The notes under the pieces are model-generated. The model did not search any database. It was not told where the DNA came from and worked only from the letters and a program-made list of their open reading frames with translations. A DNA stretch of 64,000 nucleotides, from NCBI RefSeq assembly GCF_003018235.1, contig NZ_CP027437.1; one strand, given 5' to 3'. This stretch comes from Escherichia coli. GTDB taxonomy: Bacteria > Pseudomonadota > Gammaproteobacteria > Enterobacterales > Enterobacteriaceae. Positions 7,760 through 54,941 of this stretch are shown here, in pieces (within the stretch, counting starts at the first letter, position 1; each line of letters begins with the position of its first letter). The position numbers and the translations under genes are program-made.

Positions 7760-8012
7760 ACCGCGAAACGCCGCGTTTTAGCTGTTACCCGGCTGACGCG
7801 GCTCTCTCCTGCCCTTTTCCCTGCTCCTGGACGGTTTTCCCCCTGTTACACGGGAAGCGACCGTAATCAAAAAAGTCTGTTTATAAACTAATTCCTAACA
7901 ACATCGCATTTTTTTGACACTAGAATTGCAGCAATATGGCGACGCCATTACATTGTGCTTCTCAAAAAGCTTAAACGTTGGCTAAACGGCCCGGTTTAGT
8001 GAGGATCGCCCG

Positions 8013-11602: not shown

Positions 11603-12517
11603 ATGAGTCGTTCACAAAATTTACGCCACAATGTGATTAACCAGGTCATTGATGATATGGCGCGGGGTCATATCCCTTCCCCACTTCCATCGCAAAGTGC
11701 GCTGGCGGAAATGTACAACATCAGCCGCACTACAGTGCGTCATATTCTCAGCCACTTACGCGAATGCGGCGTCTTAACGCAGGTTGGAAACGACTATGTG
11801 ATTGCGCGTAAACCTGACCATGATGACGGTTTCGCCTGTACTACCGCTTCAATGAGTGAACAAAACAAAGTGTTTGAGCAGGCTTTTTTCACGATGATAA
11901 ACCAGCGCCAGTTACGCCCTGGGGAAACTTTTTCTGAACTGCAACTGGCTCGGGCCGCGGGTGTCAGCCCGGTTGTAGTAAGAGAATATCTTTTAAAATT
12001 CGGCCGTTATAATCTTATTCAAAGCGAAAAGCGCGGCCAGTGGAGCATGAAGCAATTCGATCAATCCTACGCCGAGCAGCTGTTTGAACTACGCGAAATG
12101 CTCGAAACACATTCACTTCAGCACTTTCTCAACCTGCCTGATCATGATCCCCGCTGGCTGCAGGCGAAAACCATGCTCGAACGTCATCGGCTACTGCGTG
12201 ACAACATCGGCAATAGCTTTCGCATGTTCTCGCAACTTGACAGAGATTTTCACTCCTTACTGCTTTCAGCTGCCGACAATATCTTTTTTGATCAATCTCT
12301 TGAGATCATCTCAGTCATCTTTCATTTTCACTATCAATGGGACGAAAGCGATCTTAAACAGCGCAATATCATTACCGTCGATGAGCATATGACCATTCTC
12401 AGCGCTCTGATTTGCCGCAGTGACCTTGATGCCACCCTTGCGCTCCGTAACCATTTGAATTCAGCTAAACAATCAATGATTCGATCCATTAATGAGAACA
12501 CGCGTTATGCTCATTAA
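11603..12517 (+). CDS. lgoR: GntR-family transcriptional regulator of L-galactonate utilisation
   Basis: 304-aa ORF with N-terminal wHTH (SQSALAEMYNISRTTVRHIL). Confidence 0.85.
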   Translation: MSRSQNLRHNVINQVIDDMARGHIPSPLPSQSALAEMYNISRTTVRHILSHLRECGVLTQVGNDYVIARKPDHDDGFACTTASMSEQNKVFEQAFFTMINQRQLRPGETFSELQLARAAGVSPVVVREYLLKFGRYNLIQSEKRGQWSMKQFDQSYAEQLFELREMLETHSLQHFLNLPDHDPRWLQAKTMLERHRLLRDNIGNSFRMFSQLDRDFHSLLLSAADNIFFDQSLEIISVIFHFHYQWDESDLKQRNIITVDEHMTILSALICRSDLDATLALRNHLNSAKQSMIRSINENTRYAH

Positions 12518-12731
12518 GTACGGATTAAAAACAGCAAACTATTAGCGGGGGCACGGTTTTATCAAAAGATAAATACCGGGAAATTCCCGCTTACCTATGC
12601 TCACAATCAGTCGACTAAAAATGTTTTTGTGAGCGGTAGTAAAGTCCTAAAACTTTAACCTGCCGTTAATGTCAACCTTGCGTAATGCACAATTACGTAA
12701 ACAATTAAAATTATAAATACAGGAGTCCGGC

Positions 12732-14093
12732 GTGGAAAAAGAAAATATCACCCTCGATCCGCGTTCTTCATTTACTCCATCTTCGTCGGCAGATATTCCC
12801 GTGCCACCAGATGGATTAGTTCAACGCAGTACCCGAATTAAACGCATTCAAACCACCGCCATGTTGTTATTATTTTTTGCGGCGGTAATCAATTATCTCG
12901 ACCGCAGTTCGCTGTCGGTAGCAAATTTAACGATTCGTGAAGAATTGGGATTAAGTGCCACCGAAATCGGCGCTTTGCTCTCCGTGTTTTCACTCGCTTA
13001 CGGGATTGCGCAACTTCCTTGCGGCCCACTATTGGATCGTAAAGGCCCACGCCTGATGCTGGGACTGGGGATGTTCTTCTGGTCACTGTTCCAGGCCATG
13101 TCTGGCATGGTGCACAGCTTTACGCAGTTCGTGTTGGTGCGTATCGGTATGGGGATTGGTGAAGCGCCGATGAACCCATGTGGCGTAAAAGTCATTAACG
13201 ACTGGTTCAACATCAAAGAGCGCGGACGCCCGATGGGCTTCTTCAACGCAGCTTCTACCATTGGCGTTGCCGTAAGCCCACCGATTCTGGCGGCGATGAT
13301 GCTGGTGATGGGCTGGCGTGGGATGTTTATTACCATTGGTGTGCTGGGGATTTTTCTCGCCATTGGCTGGTATATGCTCTATCGCAACCGCGAGCACGTA
13401 GAACTGACTGCCGTTGAACAAGCTTATCTCAATGCAGGTAGCGTCAATGCCCGCCGAGATCCGCTCAGTTTTGCCGAATGGCGCAGCCTGTTCCGTAACC
13501 GCACAATGTGGGGAATGATGCTCGGATTCAGTGGCATCAACTACACTGCGTGGCTGTATCTGGCCTGGCTTCCTGGTTACCTGCAAACAGCCTATAACCT
13601 GGATTTAAAAAGCACAGGGTTGATGGCGGCTATCCCTTTCCTGTTTGGGGCTGCCGGGATGCTGGTCAACGGTTACGTTACTGACTGGCTGGTCAAAGGG
13701 GGAATGGCTCCGATTAAAAGCCGTAAGATCTGCATTATTGCCGGGATGTTCTGTTCTGCCGCCTTTACGCTGGTCGTACCGCAAGCGACAACATCCATGA
13801 CGGCGGTTCTGCTGATTGGCATGGCACTGTTCTGTATTCACTTTGCCGGAACATCCTGCTGGGGCTTGATCCACGTCGCAGTTGCTTCTCGCATGACGGC
13901 GTCGGTGGGCAGTATCCAGAACTTTGCCAGCTTCATCTGCGCCTCTTTTGCGCCGATCATTACTGGTTTTATTGTTGATACCACCCACTCATTCCGTCTG
14001 GCACTAATCATCTGCGGTTGCGTCACCGCAGCGGGAGCACTGGCGTACATCTTCCTGGTTCGTCAGCCGATCAACGACCCGCGTAAAGATTAA
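12732..14093 (+). CDS. lgoT: MFS L-galactonate:H+ symporter
   Basis: 453-aa ORF, 12 predicted TM segments, MFS signature region GPLLDRKGPR. Confidence 0.85.
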   Translation: MEKENITLDPRSSFTPSSSADIPVPPDGLVQRSTRIKRIQTTAMLLLFFAAVINYLDRSSLSVANLTIREELGLSATEIGALLSVFSLAYGIAQLPCGPLLDRKGPRLMLGLGMFFWSLFQAMSGMVHSFTQFVLVRIGMGIGEAPMNPCGVKVINDWFNIKERGRPMGFFNAASTIGVAVSPPILAAMMLVMGWRGMFITIGVLGIFLAIGWYMLYRNREHVELTAVEQAYLNAGSVNARRDPLSFAEWRSLFRNRTMWGMMLGFSGINYTAWLYLAWLPGYLQTAYNLDLKSTGLMAAIPFLFGAAGMLVNGYVTDWLVKGGMAPIKSRKICIIAGMFCSAAFTLVVPQATTSMTAVLLIGMALFCIHFAGTSCWGLIHVAVASRMTASVGSIQNFASFICASFAPIITGFIVDTTHSFRLALIICGCVTAAGALAYIFLVRQPINDPRKD

Positions 14094-14102
14094 ACTCCCT
14101 AT

Positions 14103-14136
14103 GCCCGATAACATTTTGCTTATCGGGCATTTTTAT
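14103..14136. terminator. Bidirectional rho-independent terminator between convergent lgoT and tsr
   Basis: gcccgataa-cattttgc-ttatcgggc stem-loop followed by atttttat. Confidence 0.7.
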
Positions 14137-14141
14137 GGCGA

Positions 14142-15806
14142 TTAAAACGTTTCCCAGTTCTCCCCGCTATCTGCCACTGCCATTTTACGCGGCGTAGCTG
14201 GCGTCACGTTTTTTACCACAGCCGATGTTTCACGCTGCTGTTGCTGCTGTTGCTGAATCCGGAACACTGCCACAGCTTCGGTCAGGCGACTGGCCTGCTC
14301 TTCCAGCGCGGCGGCGGCAGCGGCAGATTCTTCCACCAGCGCAGCGTTCTGTTGAGTTACCCGGTCCATCTCAGCAACCGCTAAGCCAACCTGATCGATA
14401 CCACGGCTCTGCTCATCAGAAGCAGAAGCAATTTCGCCCATAATGTCCGTCACGCGGGTCACAGCGCTGACAATCTCCGCCATTGTTTCCCCGGCGCTTT
14501 CGACCAGCGTAGAGCCAACATCCACTTTCCCCACCGAGTCTTCAATCAGGCTTTTAATTTCGCGAGCCGCCTGGGCGCTGCGCTGGGCCAGATTACGCAC
14601 TTCGCCCGCGACCACCGCAAAACCGCGCCCTTGCTCACCCGCACGCGCAGCCTCAACCGCCGCGTTCAAAGCCAGAATATTGGTCTGGAAGGCAATGCCG
14701 TCAATTACGCTGATAATATCGGCGATTTTCTGCGAACTGGTGGAGATATCGCGCATGGTCTGCACCACGTTATCCACCACTTTGCCGCCGCGTTGCGCCG
14801 TTTCGGAAGCACTTAACGCCAGGTGGCTGGCCTGACGCGCATTTTCGGCGTTCTGCTTCACCGTTGCGGTCAGTTGCTCCATGCTGGCTGCCGTCTCTTC
14901 CAGCGAAGCGGCCTGTTGCTCGGTGCGCGAAGAGAGATCGTTATTGCCGGTGGCGATTTCGCTGGCACCGCTATAGATGGCATTGGCCCCGTTGCGCACA
15001 TCACCGACGGTACGCATCAGCTCTCCCTGCATATGGCGCAAACTCTCTGCCAGTTGCCCCATCTCATTAGAGCCATCCACCTCAATCGGTTTCACCAGAT
15101 CGCCGCCTGCAATATGACGAATGCTGTCAATCAGGCGATTCATTGGCGCTACCAACGAGGCTTTAATACCGAACCAGACGGCGAAGATGACCGCCAGTAC
15201 GACGATCATCACGCCCACCAGGATCCACATCGCCTGGCTGTAGGAGGCATTATTATCGCTGACGGCGATATCATAGAGCCGATCGTTTTGCTCCATGTAA
15301 GCCACATACTGCTTCTCGAAACCGTCCTGATATCCCTGGGTCGGCTGATCAAAGAACTCGTTGATTTTGCCTGCACCTAACAGTTGGATCAGCTCCGCCA
15401 GCGCATTGTGATAAATATCGTAATTACGTTTGATCTCTGCCGCTGCGGCGGTGCTCTGACGCGGGTCACGCGGCAACGCTTCGTAATCCGCCCAGTTTTT
15501 TTCCGCCTGTTTCAGCGAAATACTGGCACTCTGCATCAGCTCAGCAACGGTTGAACCGCTACCAATATTATTCTGATCCATCATGTAGCGGATACCCGCG
15601 CGGTTGAGGGTGTTACGCGTCTGCAACAACGCGACCCAGCTGCCATTCAGCGTGGATTGCTGCTGGCGAATGGTTTGTAAAACAGTGAAATTTTCTTTGT
15701 CATTCTTTAAGGCATTAAAGAACAGACCGCCTGATGTCAGTTGTAAAAGGCCAAAAACGGCCAAAACCAGCAGTAAGCTGGTCACAATTTTGATACGTTT
15801 TAACAT
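14142..15806 (-). CDS. tsr: Methyl-accepting chemotaxis protein I (serine chemoreceptor)
   Basis: 554-aa ORF with two TM segments, HAMP, methylation helices ([17 protein letters not shown]) and C-terminal NWETF pentapeptide. Confidence 0.95.
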
Positions 15807-42672: not shown

Positions 42673-45600
42673 TCAGGAGGCGATCACCTCCACCAGCACA
42701 TCCGTTGCCCAACTCTCTTCGCTGTTGGCGACATTCCCTTCCTTGCAGGCCTGAGCCATTTTGACTAACTGGAAAGAAACGTCATCGCGGAAATCAAAGT
42801 AATGCCATTGCGATGCAAAGTTGATGCGCCAGTAGCCCATCCCCTGATCGAAGCGGATCTTCAATACCTGACCATCATCAAAAGTCACCGTCAGTTTACG
42901 ATGGTGAGGGATATCGCGCGGCGAGTCGAACACCGTCAGTTCTACCGGCCTGCCCAGCGCAGCAGCAAACCACTGATCAGCGAAATCCTGAAAATCCGCT
43001 ATGCTCATCCAGTCATGGAAAGGCCGGTTACCGGGGCGATCTTTATCTTTAAATAGCGTATCCAGCGTCACTTCAGCGCCATCGGTCAGCTTTGTTTTTA
43101 GCGGTCTCAAAATTGATCCCAACAACGCCAGCGCAACCGGGTTTTGCAGATAGCGATCGGTATAGTGAACGCCGGTAATTCGCGTGTTATTCATCAGTGA
43201 CTGCGCTTCTTCATGGTCGTTAAACAGCACGTCCCAGAAGCGTTGCCCAAACTGCGACAGTGGTCCATTCAACTGTTTGTGGATCTGAATGTCTTTGACC
43301 CGCTCGACAGCGTTGGCGGCTTTAGCCGGCAGAATAAATTCGTTCAGCTCTACCGTTTTATAGCCGAGACTACGTACCACCAGTTCGTCATTCAGGTGCC
43401 ACTCCGGCCCCGGAATCGTTGCCTGCTGGCTACGAGAGGCCAGCGTCATCACGCGATCGGCAAAGGTGACCTGAGCAACGATCGGTAATTTCAAATCCTG
43501 TTCAACATGGCATAGCCGCACACCCAGCGCAGTAAATTGCGATAGTTCGTGCAACAGGTCCGGGTCATCCACTCCCGCAGGAATAACAAGATCGACCTCG
43601 ACGTTGTCTTTTAGCCGATAGTTCTGAACCGCCGCGCGGAACTGACGTGCGTATAAATCCCACTCATTGGGCGCGCCGGTCATCCACAGGGTGAGCTTTT
43701 CAGCGCCTTCGTTAATCGCCCGGCGAATCGTATCGCCAATGGCGCCAGGGCAGTAGCGGGCATCCGGCAGCGAGAATGTCTCTTCATCCGGTAAACCGAT
43801 GTAATACGTGAAGTCATCGCCAAGCCAGGCCAGCGCCGCTTTGCGATCCAGCAAATCGTGATCGTGGCGAGTCTGGGAATCAAGCAGGCATTCACTACAT
43901 GCAGTCTCACAATGGCGGCAGCCTAACTGTTTCACCATTCCCTGCAATATAGCTTCAATGTGTACCGGTGCGCTGGAGGCAAAACCTGCACCACCGCTGA
44001 TCACATCATAAAGCTGTACGGCTAATACCGATTGCCCATCCTCCAGTCTGACCGGACGTACAGAATAGCCGAGTTCTGCGGCGGAGATACCCAGAACGCC
44101 CGCCAGCGCCTGACGCAGAGCAACCGCCAGAGTCATGGCAACAATCCGCCCCTCCTCTGTGTTATCTGGCAGATACTCGCCGTTTTGCGGTTTGCGCAGA
44201 ATCATTTCAAAGACATCGGTGCGCGCCAGTGCGCCCAGGGTGACGTTCTTCATGAGTGCCGTCGAACCGGGGCAAATCAGACGATGATTCTGGCTGTCGC
44301 GATCCGCTTTACCCGGACGCGGTGGATAGTGAGCTTCCATGCTTTTCGGCGCATCATTTTCATTCAGCATCGACTCAGCACGGCCACAGCTCAGACACAA
44401 TGCATAACCGTGTCCACCTTCCCCCAAACTTTGCTGGAAAACATGCCCATCAGCCCCAGAAGCCATATAACCCATTAGCGGGTTAGGCAACGGTACGGGC
44501 TCTGCTTTAACAAAGACCCACGCGGGGACAACCGGGACGAATTTCATGGTTTCAATATTGTTCGTTACCGGAGCGTGTGCATCGGTGACAAACCCGGCAG
44601 GCTGCAGCACCTGACGGCGATTATCCATGATTATTTTTTCGCCGCAGGCGCTATTGGAGCAAAAGAGCATCCCGGAACTGCTCATCCCCTCTTCATAGCC
44701 AATGGTCCCGCATTTGTGACAGCGCCAGGCGCAATCCAGACGCTGGGCTTCATTGGTATCAGCATTAATGTTGTGCCAGTGCAGTGAGACACCGGCAGAG
44801 CGGAAGACACGGCCATCAAGAATGATCTCTGCTCCCGGTGCATATTCACGAATGGCAACACCGAGGTTACGGGAAGGTAATCCTTTATAACGGGAGACGT
44901 TATCTTCACGGTCCTTTTTATCACGACTTTTTTGCGATTTTTCGCGGATATAATCTTCCATTGTGAAGTTATCAAACGTCACTACATCTGTCGGGAAACC
45001 GTATCCCGGCAAGAAGGTTCTGGCAGCTAGATCGCGCAGCAGATACTCGCCACAGTGCCGTTTCTTCTCCAGCTCTATGCGCTTACGATAAGGCGTTTGC
45101 GGCTGCGACTCACGCTCCTGTGTCACGAGATCGCGATAAACGGAGAGCCACCGCTGCTGCAGGAAGGTGATCGCGTTGATTGTTTTATCCCGCAGATATT
45201 CGGCTCTTGCACCATGCAACGCCGTACCTTTCACCAGCCGTTCCAGCGCCGTGTCGATATCAAGAACAGGGCGTTCCAGCCAGACTTTGAAGCGTTCGCA
45301 TTTTGACTGCCCGTCATCTTCACCGAAAAACCAGAGGCTATCGAGGCTGGTTTTCTCTTTATCGGTTTCGCCAATAACGTTACATAAAAAGTCGGACAGT
45401 AATAATGCATTGACGTGACGTTGCACCAGTCGGGCGGAGTTCATCGCGACCATGGGTGCCGGGATCATGGTTTCAAATGGCCAGAGCGGGTTGGCAAAAA
45501 CCTGCTGGTCGTGTGGGTTACCTTTACATAGGGTGTAAGAGATCGCACGTGATTCTTTACTACGCCCGGCTCGCCCGGCGCGCTGTAAATAGTTGGCCGG

Positions 45601-48600
45601 ATGTGGCGGTACGTTGTTCATTACCACCGCAGTAATGCCCCCGATATCAACCCCCATTTCCATGGTGGTGGAACAGTTGAGAACATTTAGTTGCCCATTC
45701 TTGAACATCTTTTCATAGCTTTGCAGACGTTCTGACGACTGCTGGGCAGAGTGCTCGGCAGTGCGATAGTAGAAACCGCCTTCCACGACACGATCGTTGA
45801 TGTCTGTCCAGACGTTTTCCGACCGCAATTGTGCGATCAGCGGATCATTGCTGACCCAGTCGCGTGCTTTTGCCAGACCCTCTGCGTAGTCTTCCTGTGA
45901 ACGATCCAGCTTCCAGATTTCCGGCATGGTGACTTTCTGCGCGACAAAAGTGTCATATTGCGCCTGGGTAAGATGCTCGAACGAAATATGGGTAGGCAGA
46001 TAAGGGGTTAAGCCTTTAAAAGCCGTATCCAGGATTTTATTGGTTACCGGGCAAATCCAGGCATCCGTGATTAATGAAAAAGTCATATGCTCTTTCGGTA
46101 AATAAAAACGGTTGCCATCGGGTTTCAGTACTGCAAGCGGTCCGGTAAGTTGGGCCCATGCTTCTTTCAGCCATGTATTGATAATATCAATAGTCGCCGT
46201 ATTGACGGTTTTGAATCCAGCCCCCAGCATCAGTAACTTCGCTAAACGATGGGATACGTTGCCATTACGAATTTGAGGCCAGCGTCTGTTCTGATTATCT
46301 TCAGGATCTTTTGATTCCGGGTTACGGACGAATTTTGATGAAAAACGGCTACCGATCCAGTTTTTCAGCTCATCATCCAGCTGTGTGAAGTTGCTCTCAC
46401 GAACGTAATGATCCAGCGTAACTTTGAGAAAATCGCGCCAGTCATCCAGCGTTAATCCTTTTTCCTGCCAGTGCAGAGGGATCTTATGTATTTTCTCCAG
46501 CCCCAGGTAACCAACCTGAACCAGCCCTTGTGTTTCCAGGCTGTTAGTCCGTTTAGGGCGACGCATGAATTCCCGGAATAACAACATTTCCGAAAGCTTT
46601 AGAGGCCCGCCGTTTTCATTAAACACTTCAGGCTTAAGATAATGGTTATATTGCAGAACCGGGCCACGGATATCGGCTCTCTCTTTAAGCTCGTTAACCA
46701 TTTCTGTCCAGGTTCGGGATACCAGAGTAATTGCAGCTTTTCCACCGATTGCAGACTGGTAAGCCTGTTCAAGCTGCTCGGCCTGCGCTTCTGATAATTT
46801 CGCTTGATCCGGCAATCCCCAGCTTCGATATTCTTCTGCCTGCTCACGGGCTTGCTTTACCCTGGTCGCTAATTTTTCCAGATCGGCATTAGCGTTCGGC
46901 GCCGTGGGCGTTTGCGTTCGTTGATGCCAGCTCAGAATTTCGACTACGCTTCCGCGTAAGCGACTACGTTCTGCTTCTTGCTGCATACGCACCGCCATCC
47001 GGGCTGTCCCTTGTCGACTATCCGTAAAGGTAATGAGTCGACGTCCTCGCCCTGGCAACGAATCTGGTCCGACGCCCTCTTTGCCTTCATCACTGGCAAA
47101 GTCCTGACAATACTCAAGAACGGTGGGAACGATATTAGTAACGTAAAATGGCCCACCTAATAGTGCACGCCGGAAGGGCTGTTTCCCGCTCATGCCTCTG
47201 AAGCCACAGCCGCTGGCGCTACAAACCTGTTCAATATCATTAATAATCAGCGGAATGCTGTCATTATTAATAACGCCAATACGGCGCGTCTGACGGTCGA
47301 GGCGTTGTAGGGTATAGCCTGTCTCGCTGGTCTCTCCTGCGGCAATAATCAACGGAGGCTGGAAACCGTTCTCTTTTTCGACTTTTTCCTCTGTAGTGTC
47401 ATGTTCAACAGGTACTTCATCCTGCAAGGAGAACTCATCGCCACCTTTATTTTCCCATTGGACAAGTTTGCCCTTTTTGTCCTGCGCCAGAAGATGAGGC
47501 TCATTACAATCATTACAGAACGCCACTTCGTAGACAGGGCTTCCACAGTCGCAATTTTGTCGCTGGTTCACATACACATAGCCAAAGGGCCAGCCTTTTT
47601 CGAGCGGTGTACCGTGCTTTAATCTGCAATCTTTATCAACACAAGCCCATATTCCCTGGGTATTACGCTGGAAGATATGCGCCCTGACTTTAAGAAATGC
47701 GGGATCCTTTGCATTAGGTTGAGTCCCTGAACAGACATCGATCCAACGCAGTACTTCCTGCTGGCTGTAATGCTGTTTTGTCAGCGCATTTAACCGCTGC
47801 GTCATCTCATCCAGTTTCATTGGATTAGGTTGGCTAACCAACATTTCACGTATGTAACGCGCTTCGGGGGAGTGCGTAAGCGCATAAAAGCGCTCAGGAC
47901 TTATCCCTTTAATTTTATTATCATTTTTATCTTTTAGATCCAGATCAGGTATTTGCTCTATTTCGTCTAACGGAACAGAAACGTTTTTGGATGGTTCCAG
48001 TTCAGGAATCACCCGACTTCCGTCCAGAACATCGATGCGCTCCTGCGGGATACCGGATAATTCAGAGAGAAATTTTTTCAGCTGCTTTTCAGCGTCGCTG
48101 CCGGCAATGGTCGCAGAGGTCGCTACAAAGCGCACGTCATCTGGTGTCACGCCAAACGCTGTCATCACACGACGCAGCTGGAGCGCCAGTTCAGCGGCCT
48201 GCGACCCGACATAGGTATGCGCTTCATCCAGTACAATCCAGCGTAGTGATTTTTGTGCTTTAGATTGCTGGATAATCGGGGCGTCGACCTGGCGAACCAT
48301 CATATATTCCAGCATCGTGCCGTTGGTCACCAGAATCGGCGCAGGTTCTTCACGCATTTTTTCGCGCGAGAGCACCTCATTCGGCCTTTTTGCCTGTTCA
48401 CTTTTTACCGAAGCGTGTAGGTTTTCGGTGTTGCCGTTGTAAAGGCAGTAGCGAATCCCAGTACCAAAACCACGCGTCCAGGCATCCAGACGCTCGCGCT
48501 GTGAATTAATCAAGGCGTTCAATGGATAGAGAAAAAGGGCTCGGACACCAACCAACGGATTGTTGCCATTTTCATGCAGTTCCCGGTAAAGATCTTCCAG

Positions 48601-49017
48601 CACCGGAACCATAAAACATTCCGTTTTACCTGAACCCGTACCACTGGTTACCACCACTGAATGTTTCTTTTCCAGCAAAGCTTTCCAACTGGCTAACTGG
48701 TGTGTAAAAGGCTTCCAGTCAGCACCAAATCGGTACCGGCCATTACTCTGATTATCCAGTGAATCAACCACTGCTTTGCTCAACAATGCGTTGCCTTCCG
48801 TCAGGCTGCGCATCGTGTGATTTGACTCCTTCCATCCAAACATTTGCTGGAATACCGGAGAAGCAAGGAATGAGCCCGGTTTCCCACAATCAGCCCCCAT
48901 TTGTTGCGCGAGATGTTCACGCAGCTGCGGGTTGGTAACGCCCATGATACTGAGCGTTGCTTCAGTTGAACGAGACAACGATTGTTCAATAAGTGACGAA
49001 AAATAGCGTGTAGTCAT
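42673..49017 (-). CDS. Giant (2114 aa) DEAD/DEAH-box SF2 helicase with zinc-ribbon/DUF1998-like cysteine clusters; candidate DruE-like effector of a Druantia type III-like defence module
   Basis: Single uninterrupted ORF; Walker [15 protein letters not shown] box VLDEAHTY, motif [11 protein letters not shown]; Cys clusters [42 protein letters not shown]; family assignment is by pattern recognition. Confidence 0.7.
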
Positions 49018-50818
49018 CCTTATTCCTTTTTATTTTTTAGCAACATAACGCAACAGGCTGCACTGAAAGATGGTCTTAAACCAGCGGGAATCGAAGTCCC
49101 TGACTTACCTCAGGAAAAATACGGCACCGGGTTTACGGTCAAATACAGCTTCAAAAGAAGTATTTCCGCTTGCCACAGCTGCAGCGAAGACGGGTAACCA
49201 GGCCACGGAATAGCGGTGATTTGCGTCAGGATTAATACCAATCACTGGATTTTTTTGTGACATCATCCATTTATACAGACGCTTGCAGCCATATTCAGGC
49301 CAGCGAGCTTCACTGTGCTCACGTAAAAGCTCCTGATACCACCCGTGGACACAAGATTCAGGAATAGACGGAGGGAGATATCCGTTACTTAACCATTTCT
49401 CAATTTCATCGGCATATGTCGGGAACACGAGCCCCAGCCGTTGAAACATATTAGTAACCAGTAATTTCTGGGTTTCCTCCGGTGCACCTTTTTGGCTCAG
49501 GAACAATTTGAAACGCTCAGATGCAGCTTTGATCTCAAAGATGGGGAAAAACTCCCATAGAATAGGGAACTCATTCTCAATACGACTCAGGTACTCTGCT
49601 GACATTTCAAATTTGAAGAGCGACATCGCCAATGCCTGCGGATGCTGCACTAGTGCACGCCATACTTCAAAGGTTGCCAGCGGTAAATAACCAAATTGAT
49701 CGTACAGGCTACGCATAAATTGCCAGCCGGAATGGGCAGGATCGTTAGCCATCTGTCCGAGAACCAGTGTGATGGTATTAACTTCTGCCTGTGGATTAAA
49801 AAGCTGGGTCGCTTTCTGCAATGAGCGGATGTTGCTTTCTTCTACCGGTAACGAAGATTCGCCACGAATGAAGCAGGGGCGAAAAGCCATCTCCTCACCC
49901 GGTTTAGGAACAACCAACCATGGCCCATTTTTGTTAACGATTGAGCTCAACTCATATTCACCGACAGGCACTCCCTCGCTCATTCTTGATGCTAAGGGGA
50001 TGGATTTCCTCTCGGGTTCACTTAACAGCATGATAACGGGGGAAGGAATCTGCCCAGCACGATGGTTCACTGACTGGCTGAGTAATAGTTCTTTTTCATA
50101 ATCATAGCGCAGGCTGTATTTATAGCGACGAATTTGCCAGGCCATGACCACACCTGCCCCCGTAATACGCATCTCAACAACCTGATCAATACCTGCCTCA
50201 AGTGAAATCAGGTTCTCAATATGTTCGCGCAGACTATAGAGATTCAATTCAACAGGACGATCGCTCAACGCCGTATAACACCATTCATGCCATGCCTGTA
50301 ATCCACTAACGGAGCGCAAATACAACTGCAATGTATATTTTGTCGGCTCACCATTTCTGGAGAACAGAAACGCTCTGGAACCCAGCAGATCATGCAGCGT
50401 AATGTTTTTATCCAGAGGACGTCCGTTTACATCAAGAGCGAGACAGCCTTTAGCGGGAAAAGGTAACTCAATGTCGATGGGGTCAGCCGCCAAATTAGGC
50501 AGAACTTGTAATGTAATAAATGCCGGAGGTACCCCTTCCGCTTTAAGTTGTATCTCTGTTCGCCCCTCAGTACGCTTACGTGTAGCCTCCAATGTTTTAT
50601 CTTTAAGTTTTGCTACACAAGGATGCTGTGTGGTGATTAAGATAGTGCCTTCATTTGCGTGCATTCCACCTTTTATCTCAATACTGAAATCAGCAGGCAA
50701 GATACCGATTTTGCGACGCAAGAGCGTTTCATTGTTACTATTACGGATAGAAAGATATTGAGCCCCCAGCATCTCTTGTATATGACATTGCTCAATTGAA
50801 ATTCCGCTCAGGTAACGC

Positions 50819-50823
50819 GTTAC
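50819..50823. repeat. Target-site duplication GTTAC (left copy)
   Basis: Identical 5-mer directly flanks both IS termini. Confidence 0.8.
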
Positions 50824-52777
<1,954 letters not shown>

Positions 52778-52782
52778 GTTAC
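52778..52782. repeat. Target-site duplication GTTAC (right copy)
   Basis: Identical 5-mer directly flanks both IS termini. Confidence 0.8.
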
Positions 52783-54776
52783 ATCAATGCTTTGAATATC
52801 CGGTAGTGTAGAAATGACTTTTGGTACACCAATAAATGTTTCATCTGGATGACAAACCCAGCTTGCACGCTTTCCATTTAGAGCAAACCTTCCGATGCTG
52901 ATTTGTTCTCTTCCGGTGCGAATCCGATAAGTTTCATTTGCTGTAACTGTAACGTCCTGACATCCCTTCACAGGTAGTGCTTTTAGTCCTAATACGTTTA
53001 CTGCGCTCGATTGGCCATCAAAACCAGCAACATTGCTATTATCCCGAGGGAGTACAATCAGAACATCGCTGCTTCGCACACTGCAAGAAGCCTGTCCCTG
53101 TAACAGCCATTGATCTGCATCAACGATGAAGGTTAACGGCACCTCACCAATGGCAATTTCACTGTCATCAAGTTTAATGCTCCCAACAATCATCCCTCCA
53201 GCACGAGCCACTAATGACAAACCTGCCGATGGATTTTGCCTGACAAATCTCACTTCGCTTTTACGTAATCGAACTGTTGCCTGTCTGTTTTCCAGGGAAG
53301 CATAGGCTGGCCCAAGGCCAGAGACTTCCTCACCATCTTCACAAATGGCAAGTTCAAAGCGCGTAGTTGACGGCTCGCTTGTTACAGGAAAGGAAACTTC
53401 GTCCGGAAGAGATACTATCACCCTAAGCTCATCTGGATGCTTTTCTGACCAATAGAATTGGCAACGCGTACTCTTATTTTTTTGTAGTCGAGGCTTAGCC
53501 TCTACAGAGGCTGCGCATAGCAGTCCATTCAAAAAATGCGTTCCTGTTTCATCATCTAACGGTATTGGAAACTCGCTTCGCCAGGTAGGGTGAACCTTCT
53601 CAAGCTGTTGTACTGGTTCTTTGTGATTTATTAGGTTGTGAGTAAGTACTAAGGAATTGAGGTTATCAGCCATATGACTGATAAGTTCTACAGAGGTATC
53701 TTCGCTAAAAACAGTTGGCAGCGCTGATTTTTCTATGACAGCTCTTGCCAGCGAAAGGGCAGAAAAACCTGACTGCTTTGCTTGCTCATATTGTCCAAGG
53801 ATCCTGGAGAAAACAGCCAGAAAGCGACTGTCTGATTCTTTGAGTAGCCGGAAAGGTAAACCACCTTCACTGAATAATGTTCCGAGAAAATTGCGTCGTT
53901 CAGATTCATAAAATCGAATTGGGCGCAGCCAGTAATCTTCCATCCCTTTCGGTACGATAGTACCAAGCTCTGTGGCGGTGAATGAAATCCCTATTTTTTA
54001 TATATAGGGTCCCACGTCCATCCGCATTGCCGTTCATAATCCCTGCGGTACCACTCAGAGCAAAAAAGAACAAAACAGGCAGCAAAGTCCCTATTACATA
54101 TATTAGATTGTGATTGACCGACCGCACGGAGTAGCTGCGTTAATTGGGTATATTCATCATTGGTTGCATGATATTCATAAAGAGGACGGCCATCCGGTTG
54201 TCTCAACCCTCTAAGATTCACAAAGTTACTTAGCCAGGAAGTACATTTTACCCATGAAATGTATTCTGATTGACCCAAAGCAAGCTCCTTAGAGATAAAA
54301 GATACAAAAACAAAACCCCACAACACTTCTAATTTGAAAGAAAACTTTTCAAAATATCGTATAATTAATCAGGCGGCAACAACTAATTTTTCATGTCGGT
54401 ACTATAAATTAATTTTAGATAAAAATGATATCAACCATCTATTAATCACAACTCATTTATCACCTGGTTTTATAATTTCAAATGAAAATAAATCTCAAAC
54501 AATCAAAAAGTATGCAGTAGCTAACATTTAACTTTCCAGGATATAAAACAATTAGAGAAACTGCACAATAGCGAATAATGAAAGTTGTAAAGTCAGTCAA
54601 AAAACACAAGCAATCAGTGTGCGTTTTTTGACCGTTATCGACATGAGTTTAAAGAGTTTAGTGAAGAAGATATTCCTGTACACTCCATACCTATTGATGA
54701 ATTGTCTCGGGAAAATTTTTATAACTTAATTTAAAAACATAAAAACGTTTTATTATATATAAATCTATAACCCCCA

Positions 54777-54941
54777 TCACTCCACATCCTCCCTGCGTAA
54801 CCCAATATCCCTCAACCGCTCATCACTCATCTGCTGTAACACTCGTCGGGTCTGCATTTGCCGCCGCCAACGCCTCATCACCTGCCAGAGTTGCACAAGT
54901 CCAATAAACGGTGCTTTAGCTTTGTTTTCGTGAAATTCCAT
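54777..54941 (-). CDS. yjiS: DUF1127-family small protein (54 aa), not in supplied ORF track because under 60 aa
   Basis: Hand translation: MEFHENKAKAPFIGLVQLWQVMRRWRRQMQTRRVLQQMSDERLRDIGLRREDVE; GAGGAGG RBS 6-8 nt upstream. Confidence 0.8.
   Translation of the reverse strand: MEFHENKAKAPFIGLVQLWQVMRRWRRQMQTRRVLQQMSDERLRDIGLRREDVE

What the first reader, a model, noticed from the sequence alone, without database searches (positions are those of the whole stretch)
53940..54326. Second lesion (probable frameshift) near the 5' end of the disrupted partner gene
A 111-codon ORF (54326..53991) with protein-like composition ends 48 bp before the 393-codon fragment begins in another frame. The gap contains a small palindrome ccctat-tttttatat-ataggg. 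Either the gene's true N-terminus is frameshifted here (making an ~1080-aa ancestral protein) or the palindrome is an indel scar or a programmed-frameshift-like site.
Basis: inference. Interest (0 to 1): 0.35.

Follow-up and report, generated by a model that had tools for sequence, protein, structure and literature searches.

The report
Frameshift in a dead phage-defence gene
One A is missing from a run of seven A's near the start of the E. coli phage-defence gene druH (yjiT), which cuts the protein at codon 96; it is one of three separate knock-out mutations in a gene that is already dead, so this is ordinary gene decay.

Summary
The 111-codon ORF and the 393-codon fragment are consecutive parts of one gene on the minus strand. 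That gene is druH (yjiT), the partner of the helicase druE in a type III Druantia anti-phage system, next to mcrBC/hsd.

Intact E. coli homologues are a single 1096-aa ORF with A7 at codons 94-96. The window has A6 (53994-53999), which gives TAG at codon 96. Homology continues without a gap in the -1 frame.

The true start is TTG 54278, behind an AAGGAG Shine-Dalgarno site, not GTG 54326.

This is not an assembly error. Two independently sequenced samples (Logan assemblies of separate sequencing runs), 100% and 99.97% identical to the window, carry the same A6.

It is not a programmed frameshift. 530 of 615 complete E. coli genomes with this stretch have the in-frame A7.

The palindrome is real, but the A-run is its loop, and such repeats are common in the window.

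The gene carries two further lesions: IS100 in codon 501 and a nonsense change, Q1072* (CAA>TAA at 49107). druE is intact.

A6 also occurs in at least two other allelic backgrounds. The rate is about the same as at a second A7 run in the gene, which fits generic homopolymer slippage.

Interest is low.

The parts
53991..54278 (-). druH (yjiT) N-terminal fragment: TTG start, 95 codons, then a premature TAG at 53993-53991
   Evidence: It matches PADLOC DruH3 PDLC00049 with E = 3e-47 over profile positions 3-95. The start is the one annotated in intact homologues. Sequence read.
54285..54290 (-). Shine-Dalgarno sequence AAGGAG, 6 nt upstream of the TTG start
   Evidence: Read directly from the sequence.
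53994..53999 (-). A6 run: the site of the 1-bp deletion. It is A7 in intact alleles, covering codons K94, K95 and the first base of I96.
   Evidence: Alignment A1 and alignment A2. 530 of 615 complete genomes have the exact A7 stretch and 1 has the exact A6 stretch.
53989..54009 (-). Small inverted repeat CCCTAT / ATAGGG whose loop is mostly the A-run
   Evidence: Sequence. RNA fold z = -2.2. 209 comparable repeats occur in the window against about 150 in shuffles.
52778..53997 (-). druH middle fragment in the -1 frame (residues 95-501), running up to the IS100 insertion
   Evidence: It matches PADLOC PDLC00049 at profile positions 95-501 with E = 1e-185. After repair the window protein is 100% identical to intact YjiT.
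50824..52777 (+). IS100 (IS21 family, 1954 bp; istA 50910-51932, istB 51929-52711), inserted in codon 501 of druH and flanked by a 5-bp duplication GTAAC (52778-52782 and 50819-50823)
   Evidence: BLAST break points and junction sequences. RefSeq annotation of the matching elements as IS100.
49105..50823 (-). druH C-terminal fragment (residues 500/501-1071), ending at a premature TAA (49107-49105) caused by CAA>TAA, Q1072*
   Evidence: L007 and L008 carry the same TAA.
49030..49104 (-). The last 24 codons and the original stop of druH, now untranslated
   Evidence: Alignment A3.
42673..49017 (-). druE, the Druantia III helicase, intact at 2114 aa
   Evidence: It matches PADLOC DruE3 PDLC00037 at 2697 bits over positions 1-2053 of 2055. 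The exact protein is indexed in 47 blocks of the assembly collection.

Best explanation
The site is a loss-of-function frameshift. One A was lost from an A7 homopolymer at codons 94-96 of druH (yjiT), most likely by strand slippage during replication. druH is the partner of the DruE helicase in a type III Druantia anti-phage system in the E. coli immigration control region.

The deletion puts TAG in frame at codon 96, so translation from TTG 54278 ends after 95 residues, inside the conserved N-terminal domain. The rest of the gene continues in the -1 frame.

The mutation is fixed in a clonal lineage. It is one of three independent inactivating lesions in the same gene, together with IS100 in codon 501 and Q1072*. 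druE is still intact.

Shown here: the 1-bp difference, the identity of the gene, the three lesions, and their reproducibility in independent assemblies. Inferred: the slippage mechanism, and that the system no longer defends against phage.
For: - A6 in the window against A7 in three intact or K-12 alleles.
- In 615 complete genomes that hold the stretch, 530 have the exact A7 version and 1 has the exact A6 version.
- The three fragments hit the DruH profile contiguously, and DruE lies downstream.
- The window gene with one A restored and IS100 plus one target duplication removed translates to a protein 100% identical to intact YjiT over residues 1-1071, then stops at Q1072*.
- Independent assemblies L005 and L006 (100% and 99.97% identical to the window) carry A6 and the IS100 edge. 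L007 and L008 (both 100% identical) carry TAA and the IS100 edge.
- The 393-aa fragment is on 16 contigs.
- druH has only three homopolymers of 7 or more bases, all A7, and the lesion is in one of them.
- All other differences between the window's druH coding sequence and its closest intact allele (L001) are synonymous third-position changes, so the gene was under purifying selection until recently.
- Deleting the DruH N-terminal globular domain abolishes defence (bioRxiv 10.64898/2026.05.12.722862).
- The solved DruH structure 9tud_A aligns to residues 14-266, so residue 95 lies inside the conserved N-terminal region.
Against: - No raw reads were inspected.
- The order of the three lesions is unknown. 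Exact look-ups of the products expected from intermediate genotypes found none.
- Loss of defence is inferred from deletion experiments on a related E. coli system, not tested for this allele.
- Low-level ribosomal slippage on AAA-AAA-TAG cannot be excluded, but it would be irrelevant here because of the two downstream lesions.
Confidence: 0.92

Rival explanations
1. The A7 run is a contingency (phase-variation) switch that turns Druantia III off and on by reversible slippage. The window shows the OFF state.
For: A6 is found on at least three allelic backgrounds whose nearest relatives have A7:
- the window, whose nearest allele is L001;
- MS6198, whose nearest allele is K-12;
- L009, L010 and L011, whose nearest allele is L012.

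The run lies early in the gene, where a switch would be most effective.
Against: - The run is only 7 nt long.
- A6 is rare: at least 1 of 615 complete genomes. A8 was not seen as a full-length exact match.
- The second A7 run in the gene shows the same rate, with 1 genome carrying A6. The third shows 0.
- In the window lineage the gene then acquired two irreversible lesions, which is decay and not switching.
- MS6198's A6 could be a long-read homopolymer error (an unchecked possibility; the sequencing platform was not looked up).
- Small recombination tracts could also spread A6 between alleles.
Confidence: 0.05
2. It is a programmed -1 ribosomal frameshift or transcriptional slippage site that normally yields full-length DruH from two frames.
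For: A lysine-codon A-run stands directly before a stop codon (tat aaa aaa tag), and a -1 slip would restore the frame. A local RNA hairpin is predicted.
Against: - The species-normal allele is a single in-frame ORF with A7.
- The heptamer in the zero frame is T-AAA-AAA, not X-XXY-YYZ.
- The hairpin encloses the run instead of following it by 5-9 nt.
- The fold z-score is only -2.2.
- No Rfam family matches the region.
Confidence: 0.01
3. It is a sequencing or assembly error in a homopolymer, and the gene is not frameshifted in the real organism.
For: Homopolymer indels are the commonest assembly error. Only one RefSeq complete genome shares the exact A6 stretch.
Against: Two Logan assemblies from separate SRA runs, 100% and 99.97% identical to the window over 7.2 kb, have the same A6. 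The gene-caller's 393-aa product, which starts at Met113 and ends inside IS100, is on 16 contigs.
Confidence: 0.02

Closest known systems
DruH (YjiT family; STY4851/ECs_5259 family) of type III Druantia, with DruE
   Same: The sequence matches full-length DruH profiles. druE follows immediately downstream on the same strand. The locus sits between yjiS and mcrBC in the immigration control region, as for the 1096-aa YjiT of other E. coli. DruH has been assigned to the YjiT family in the literature (bioRxiv 10.64898/2026.05.12.724681).
   Different: Here the gene is broken three times: an A7>A6 frameshift, IS100, and Q1072*. It cannot make the full protein.
E. coli K-12 yjiT / yjiV pseudogenes
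   Same: They occupy the same locus and are likewise a decayed Druantia III pair. K-12 keeps A7 and residues 1 to about 503 of YjiT.
   Different: K-12 lost the system through deletions, one from druH codon ~504 into druE and a second inside druE. It did not suffer a frameshift, IS insertion or nonsense mutation. The window keeps an intact druE.
Homopolymer-slippage frameshift pseudogenes, and simple-sequence contingency loci
   Same: There is a single-base length change in a mononucleotide run, and it recurs on several backgrounds.
   Different: The run is short at 7 nt. Variants are rare and go in one direction only. The rate is no higher than at another A7 run in the same gene.

Membership tests
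Druantia type III DruH (YjiT family) | Full-length sequence similarity to DruH profiles | tested here: met
   The three fragments cover PDLC00049 positions 3-95, 95-501 and 500-1074 of 1100, with E-values of 3e-47, 1e-185 and 9e-290. The repaired protein is 100% identical to the annotated YjiT WP_063625629.1 over residues 1-1071.
Druantia type III DruH (YjiT family) | An adjacent, co-oriented druE helicase gene | tested here: met
   The 2114-aa ORF 49017..42673 hits DruE3 PDLC00037 at 2697 bits.
Druantia type III DruH (YjiT family) | An uninterrupted coding sequence able to give the ~1100-aa protein | tested here: not met
   There is a frameshift at codon 96, IS100 in codon 501, and a stop at codon 1072.
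Druantia type III DruH (YjiT family) | Anti-phage defence activity together with DruE | not testable with these tools
   Loss of activity is inferred from the published loss of defence on deletion of the N-terminal domain.
Programmed -1 ribosomal frameshift site | The two-frame arrangement is conserved in homologues | tested here: not met
   530 of 615 genomes have the in-frame A7 stretch, and intact 1096-aa CDSs are annotated.
Programmed -1 ribosomal frameshift site | An X-XXY-YYZ slippery heptamer in the zero frame, with a stimulatory structure 5-9 nt downstream | tested here: not met
   The zero frame reads T-AAA-AAA-TAG. The only predicted hairpin has the run in its loop. There is no Rfam match.
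Phase-variable simple-sequence contingency locus | Frequent length polymorphism of the tract among strains, in both directions | tested here: not met
   An exact A6 stretch occurs in 1 of 615 genomes, and no full-length exact A8 match was found. The control A7 runs gave 1 and 0.
Phase-variable simple-sequence contingency locus | Recurrent independent changes at the same tract | tested here: inconclusive
   A6 is seen on at least three allelic backgrounds. Short recombination tracts, or a sequencing error in MS6198, cannot be excluded.
IS100 (IS21 family) insertion | A 1954-bp element with istA and istB and a 5-bp target duplication | tested here: met
   The element spans window 50824-52777 and encodes ORFs of 340 and 260 aa. 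GTAAC is duplicated at both ends. Matching elements are annotated as IS100.

The most novel reading that the evidence does not exclude
The A7 run at codons 94-96 of druH is a low-frequency mutational on/off switch for type III Druantia. It would be hit recurrently in separate E. coli lineages because switching the system off is sometimes advantageous, for example to admit useful foreign DNA or to avoid a cost of DruH. The window lineage would then show an OFF state that was later locked in by IS100 and a nonsense mutation.
Probability: 0.05. Interest if true: 0.4.

Novelty: already known. Interest (0 to 1): 0.1.

Why it matters
It matters little beyond annotation. The result shows that the 111-codon ORF is not a separate gene.

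There is one practical point. Automatic annotation can hide this frameshift. In strain MS6198 the same A6 allele is annotated as an apparently intact 984-aa protein starting at Met113. Defence-system censuses that count such genes as functional will therefore overcount.

The repeated loss of druH by different routes (deletion in K-12, mobile elements in an ETEC strain, and a frameshift, IS100 and a stop codon here) fits the known rapid turnover of defence systems in the immigration control region.

Tried and rejected
- **Assembly error:** rejected. Independent Logan assemblies carry A6.
- **Programmed frameshift:** rejected. The in-frame A7 is the norm, there is no canonical heptamer or downstream structure, and there is no Rfam hit.
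- **Palindrome as an indel scar or signal:** rejected. It is present in intact alleles, and such repeats are common (209 in the window).
- **Separate small gene:** rejected. The profile match is contiguous across the junction.
- **Pfam scan of intact YjiT and the fragments:** no hits in the local Pfam copy. The contig index, however, lists PF27201 YjiT_N and PF27205 YjiT_2nd.
- **Exact look-up of the 95-aa N-terminal product:** not on record. Gene callers do not call it.
- **Finding the window's own genome or the IS100/druH junction in RefSeq complete E. coli genomes:** no record covers the junction.
- **Ordering the three lesions by exact look-up of intermediate products (505, 959 and 1071 aa):** none is in the collection. 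The 984-aa product exists, but on a different allele, and one of its carriers (L012) actually has A7. A 984-aa gene call is therefore not proof of A6.
- **Simple promoter and terminator scan of the upstream spacer:** nothing found.
- **Selection for inactivation, judged from three disruptive lesions and no missense change:** considered, but not supported. From rough published E. coli mutation rates (my recollection, not computed here), IS insertions and homopolymer indels are frequent enough that two further disruptive hits in a neutral 3.3-kb pseudogene are not improbable.

Full report
**What is at the coordinates**

On the minus strand, the ORF listing gives a 111-codon ORF at 54326..53991 and a 393-codon ORF at 53943..52762 in a different frame. 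The sequence between them reads ...tgg gac cct ata tat aaa aaa TAG gga ttt.... The second frame is already open from 53997, immediately after a TAA at 54000-53998. The two reading frames therefore abut at the run of six A's (53999-53994) and are not separated by a true gap. A -1 shift, or one extra A, joins them.

Most of its 9-nt loop is the A-run.

**What the gene is**

All pieces belong to one gene. Against PADLOC they hit DruH model PDLC00049 (1100 positions) as follows:

| Piece | Profile positions | E-value |
|---|---|---|
| 111-aa ORF | 3-95 | 3e-47 |
| Translation from 53997 | 95-501 | 1e-185 |
| 582-aa ORF 50853..49105 | 500-1074 | 9e-290 |

The 2114-aa ORF immediately downstream (49017..42673) is DruE of type III Druantia, at 2697 bits.

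In RefSeq E. coli genomes the same stretch is annotated yjiT, "protein YjiT" or "STY4851/ECs_5259 family protein". It lies between yjiS/yjiR and a DEAD/DEAH helicase, next to mcrBC. Recent preprints assign DruH to the YjiT family and place it in the immigration control region.

In intact genomes the CDS is 3291 nt, or 1096 aa. It starts at the position that corresponds to TTG 54278, six bases after AAGGAG. The GTG at 54326 is only the mechanical start of the ORF.

**The lesion**

Alignment of the window with strains WP2-S18-ESBL-07 (intact YjiT), MG1655 and an ETEC isolate shows a single gap. The window has A6 where all three have A7. The A7 spans codons K94, K95 and the first base of I96. Losing one A brings TAG into frame as codon 96.

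Using 81-82-nt queries, so that only exact matches score 99% or more, 615 complete genomes hold the stretch. Of these, 530 have the exact A7 version and one (MS6198) has the exact A6 version. No full-length exact A8 match was found. The A6 count is a lower bound, because A6 plus a nearby SNP would not be distinguished from A7.

**Is it real?**

The window's own genome is not in the RefSeq collection searched, and no record there spans the IS100/druH junction.

An exact look-up of the 393-aa fragment, which ends inside IS100 and so is specific to this lineage, found it on 16 contigs. Two Logan assemblies of separate sequencing runs were returned, SRR7691681 and SRR18191694. They are 100% and 99.97% identical to the window over 7.2 kb, and both have A6. 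The frameshift is therefore a fixed feature of a clonal lineage and not an assembly artefact of one genome.

**The rest of the gene**

BLAST against the intact locus places a 1954-bp IS100 at 50824-52777, with a 5-bp target duplication GTAAC. It is inserted in codon 501.

I restored one A and removed IS100 plus one copy of the duplication. The result translates to a protein 100% identical to intact YjiT over residues 1-1071, but it then stops. The cause is a third lesion that the finding did not mention: CAA>TAA at 49107, Q1072*. It removes the last 25 residues. An NCBI draft genome (GCA_014070295.1) and another Logan assembly, both 100% identical to the window over 14 kb, share this TAA and the IS100 edge.

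druE is intact, and the exact protein is indexed in 47 blocks of the assembly collection.

Every other difference between the window's druH coding sequence and its closest intact allele (L001) is a synonymous third-position change, arranged in a mosaic pattern. That is the signature of recombination among functional alleles. It implies that the three lesions are recent.

**Consequence**

The truncation is at residue 95, inside the conserved N-terminal region. The solved DruH structure 9tud_A aligns to residues 14-266. For the E. coli ATCC 8739 system, deleting the DruH N-terminal globular domain abolishes defence (bioRxiv 10.64898/2026.05.12.722862).

By inference, A6 alone would inactivate the system. 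With IS100 and Q1072* added, the gene is certainly non-functional.

**Alternatives**

A programmed frameshift is excluded by the in-frame A7 norm. In addition, the zero-frame heptamer is T-AAA-AAA. The only predicted hairpin (-21.2 kcal/mol, z = -2.2) encloses the run rather than following it. No Rfam family matches.

The palindrome is present in intact alleles too. Repeats with a 6-bp stem and a loop of 3-12 nt occur 209 times in the window, against about 150 in shuffles.

**Recurrence**

A6 also occurs in MS6198 and in three Logan assemblies (L009-L011). MS6198 has a K-12-like allele, 97.1% identical to the window, with no IS100 and CAA at codon 1072. L009-L011 likewise have no IS100 and CAA at codon 1072. 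The closest alleles to each group (K-12, L012 and L001) have A7.

This suggests at least three independent A7>A6 events. Short recombination tracts, or a long-read homopolymer error in MS6198, cannot be excluded.

As a control, intact druH has three A7 runs and no longer run. An A6 variant of the second run is found in one complete genome (ER1709), and an A6 variant of the third run in none. The first run is therefore not obviously more mutable than the others. Generic homopolymer slippage explains the data, and a dedicated phase-variation switch remains a low-probability reading.

The order of the three lesions could not be established. The products expected from intermediate genotypes are not in the protein collection.

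**Verdict**

This is ordinary pseudogene decay in a known defence gene. Its main value is for annotation: one gene rather than several, three lesions rather than two, and a note that automatic annotation can mask this frameshift.

Noticed in passing
window 49105-49107 (minus strand): This is a third inactivating lesion in druH that the finding did not mention: CAA>TAA, Q1072*. It removes the last 25 residues. The same change is present in independent assemblies L007 and L008.
   Followed up: yes
window 52778-52789 / 50812-50823; L002 (MG1655) about 7915-7935: IS100 inserted into a perfect 12-bp palindrome, GTAACGCGTTAC, and duplicated GTAAC. The K-12 yjiT|yjiV deletion junction lies only about 7 bp further on, at the other end of the same palindrome. 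Two independent rearrangements share one small site. The reason is unexplained.
   Followed up: partly
L004 (E. coli MS6198, NZ_CP015834.1) 12024-15048: MS6198 carries the same A6. RefSeq nevertheless annotates an apparently intact 984-aa 'STY4851/ECs_5259 family protein' starting at Met113, so the frameshift is hidden by the annotation. Conversely, metagenome locus L012 has A7, yet its gene call also starts at Met113.
   Followed up: partly
window 49591-49999 (druH codons 774-910): There is a cluster of about 12 third-position synonymous differences from the otherwise nearly identical allele of WP2-S18-ESBL-07. Four of them (codons 799, 809, 814, 890) are unique to the window among seven alleles. 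It looks like a small recombination patch from an unsampled functional allele.
   Followed up: partly
window 54394: In the AT-rich spacer upstream of druH, 116 nt before the start, the window has A where all six other alleles compared have C. A simple sigma-70 scan found no promoter-like site anywhere in 53800-54800 (0 found against 3.8 expected), so the native promoter is not obvious.
   Followed up: no
E. coli ER1709 (NZ_CP030240.1) 2136187-2136268: This K-12 derivative has an A6 variant of the second A7 run of yjiT (nt 797 of the CDS). It is another homopolymer deletion in a gene that is already dead.
   Followed up: no
window 56773-57729: The Rpn-family gene next to yjiR (rpnD / yjiP-yjiQ) is an intact 318-aa ORF here. 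In the MG1655 record it is annotated as a pseudogene with an internal stop, and in the ETEC isolate as frameshifted.
   Followed up: no
(protein cluster look-up): The 90% clusters returned for the DruH fragments contain unrelated proteins. The 393-aa fragment is grouped with MalF, and the 984-aa form with DruE helicases. This looks like a clustering or indexing artefact. Only the exact-sequence presence/absence results were used.
   Followed up: no
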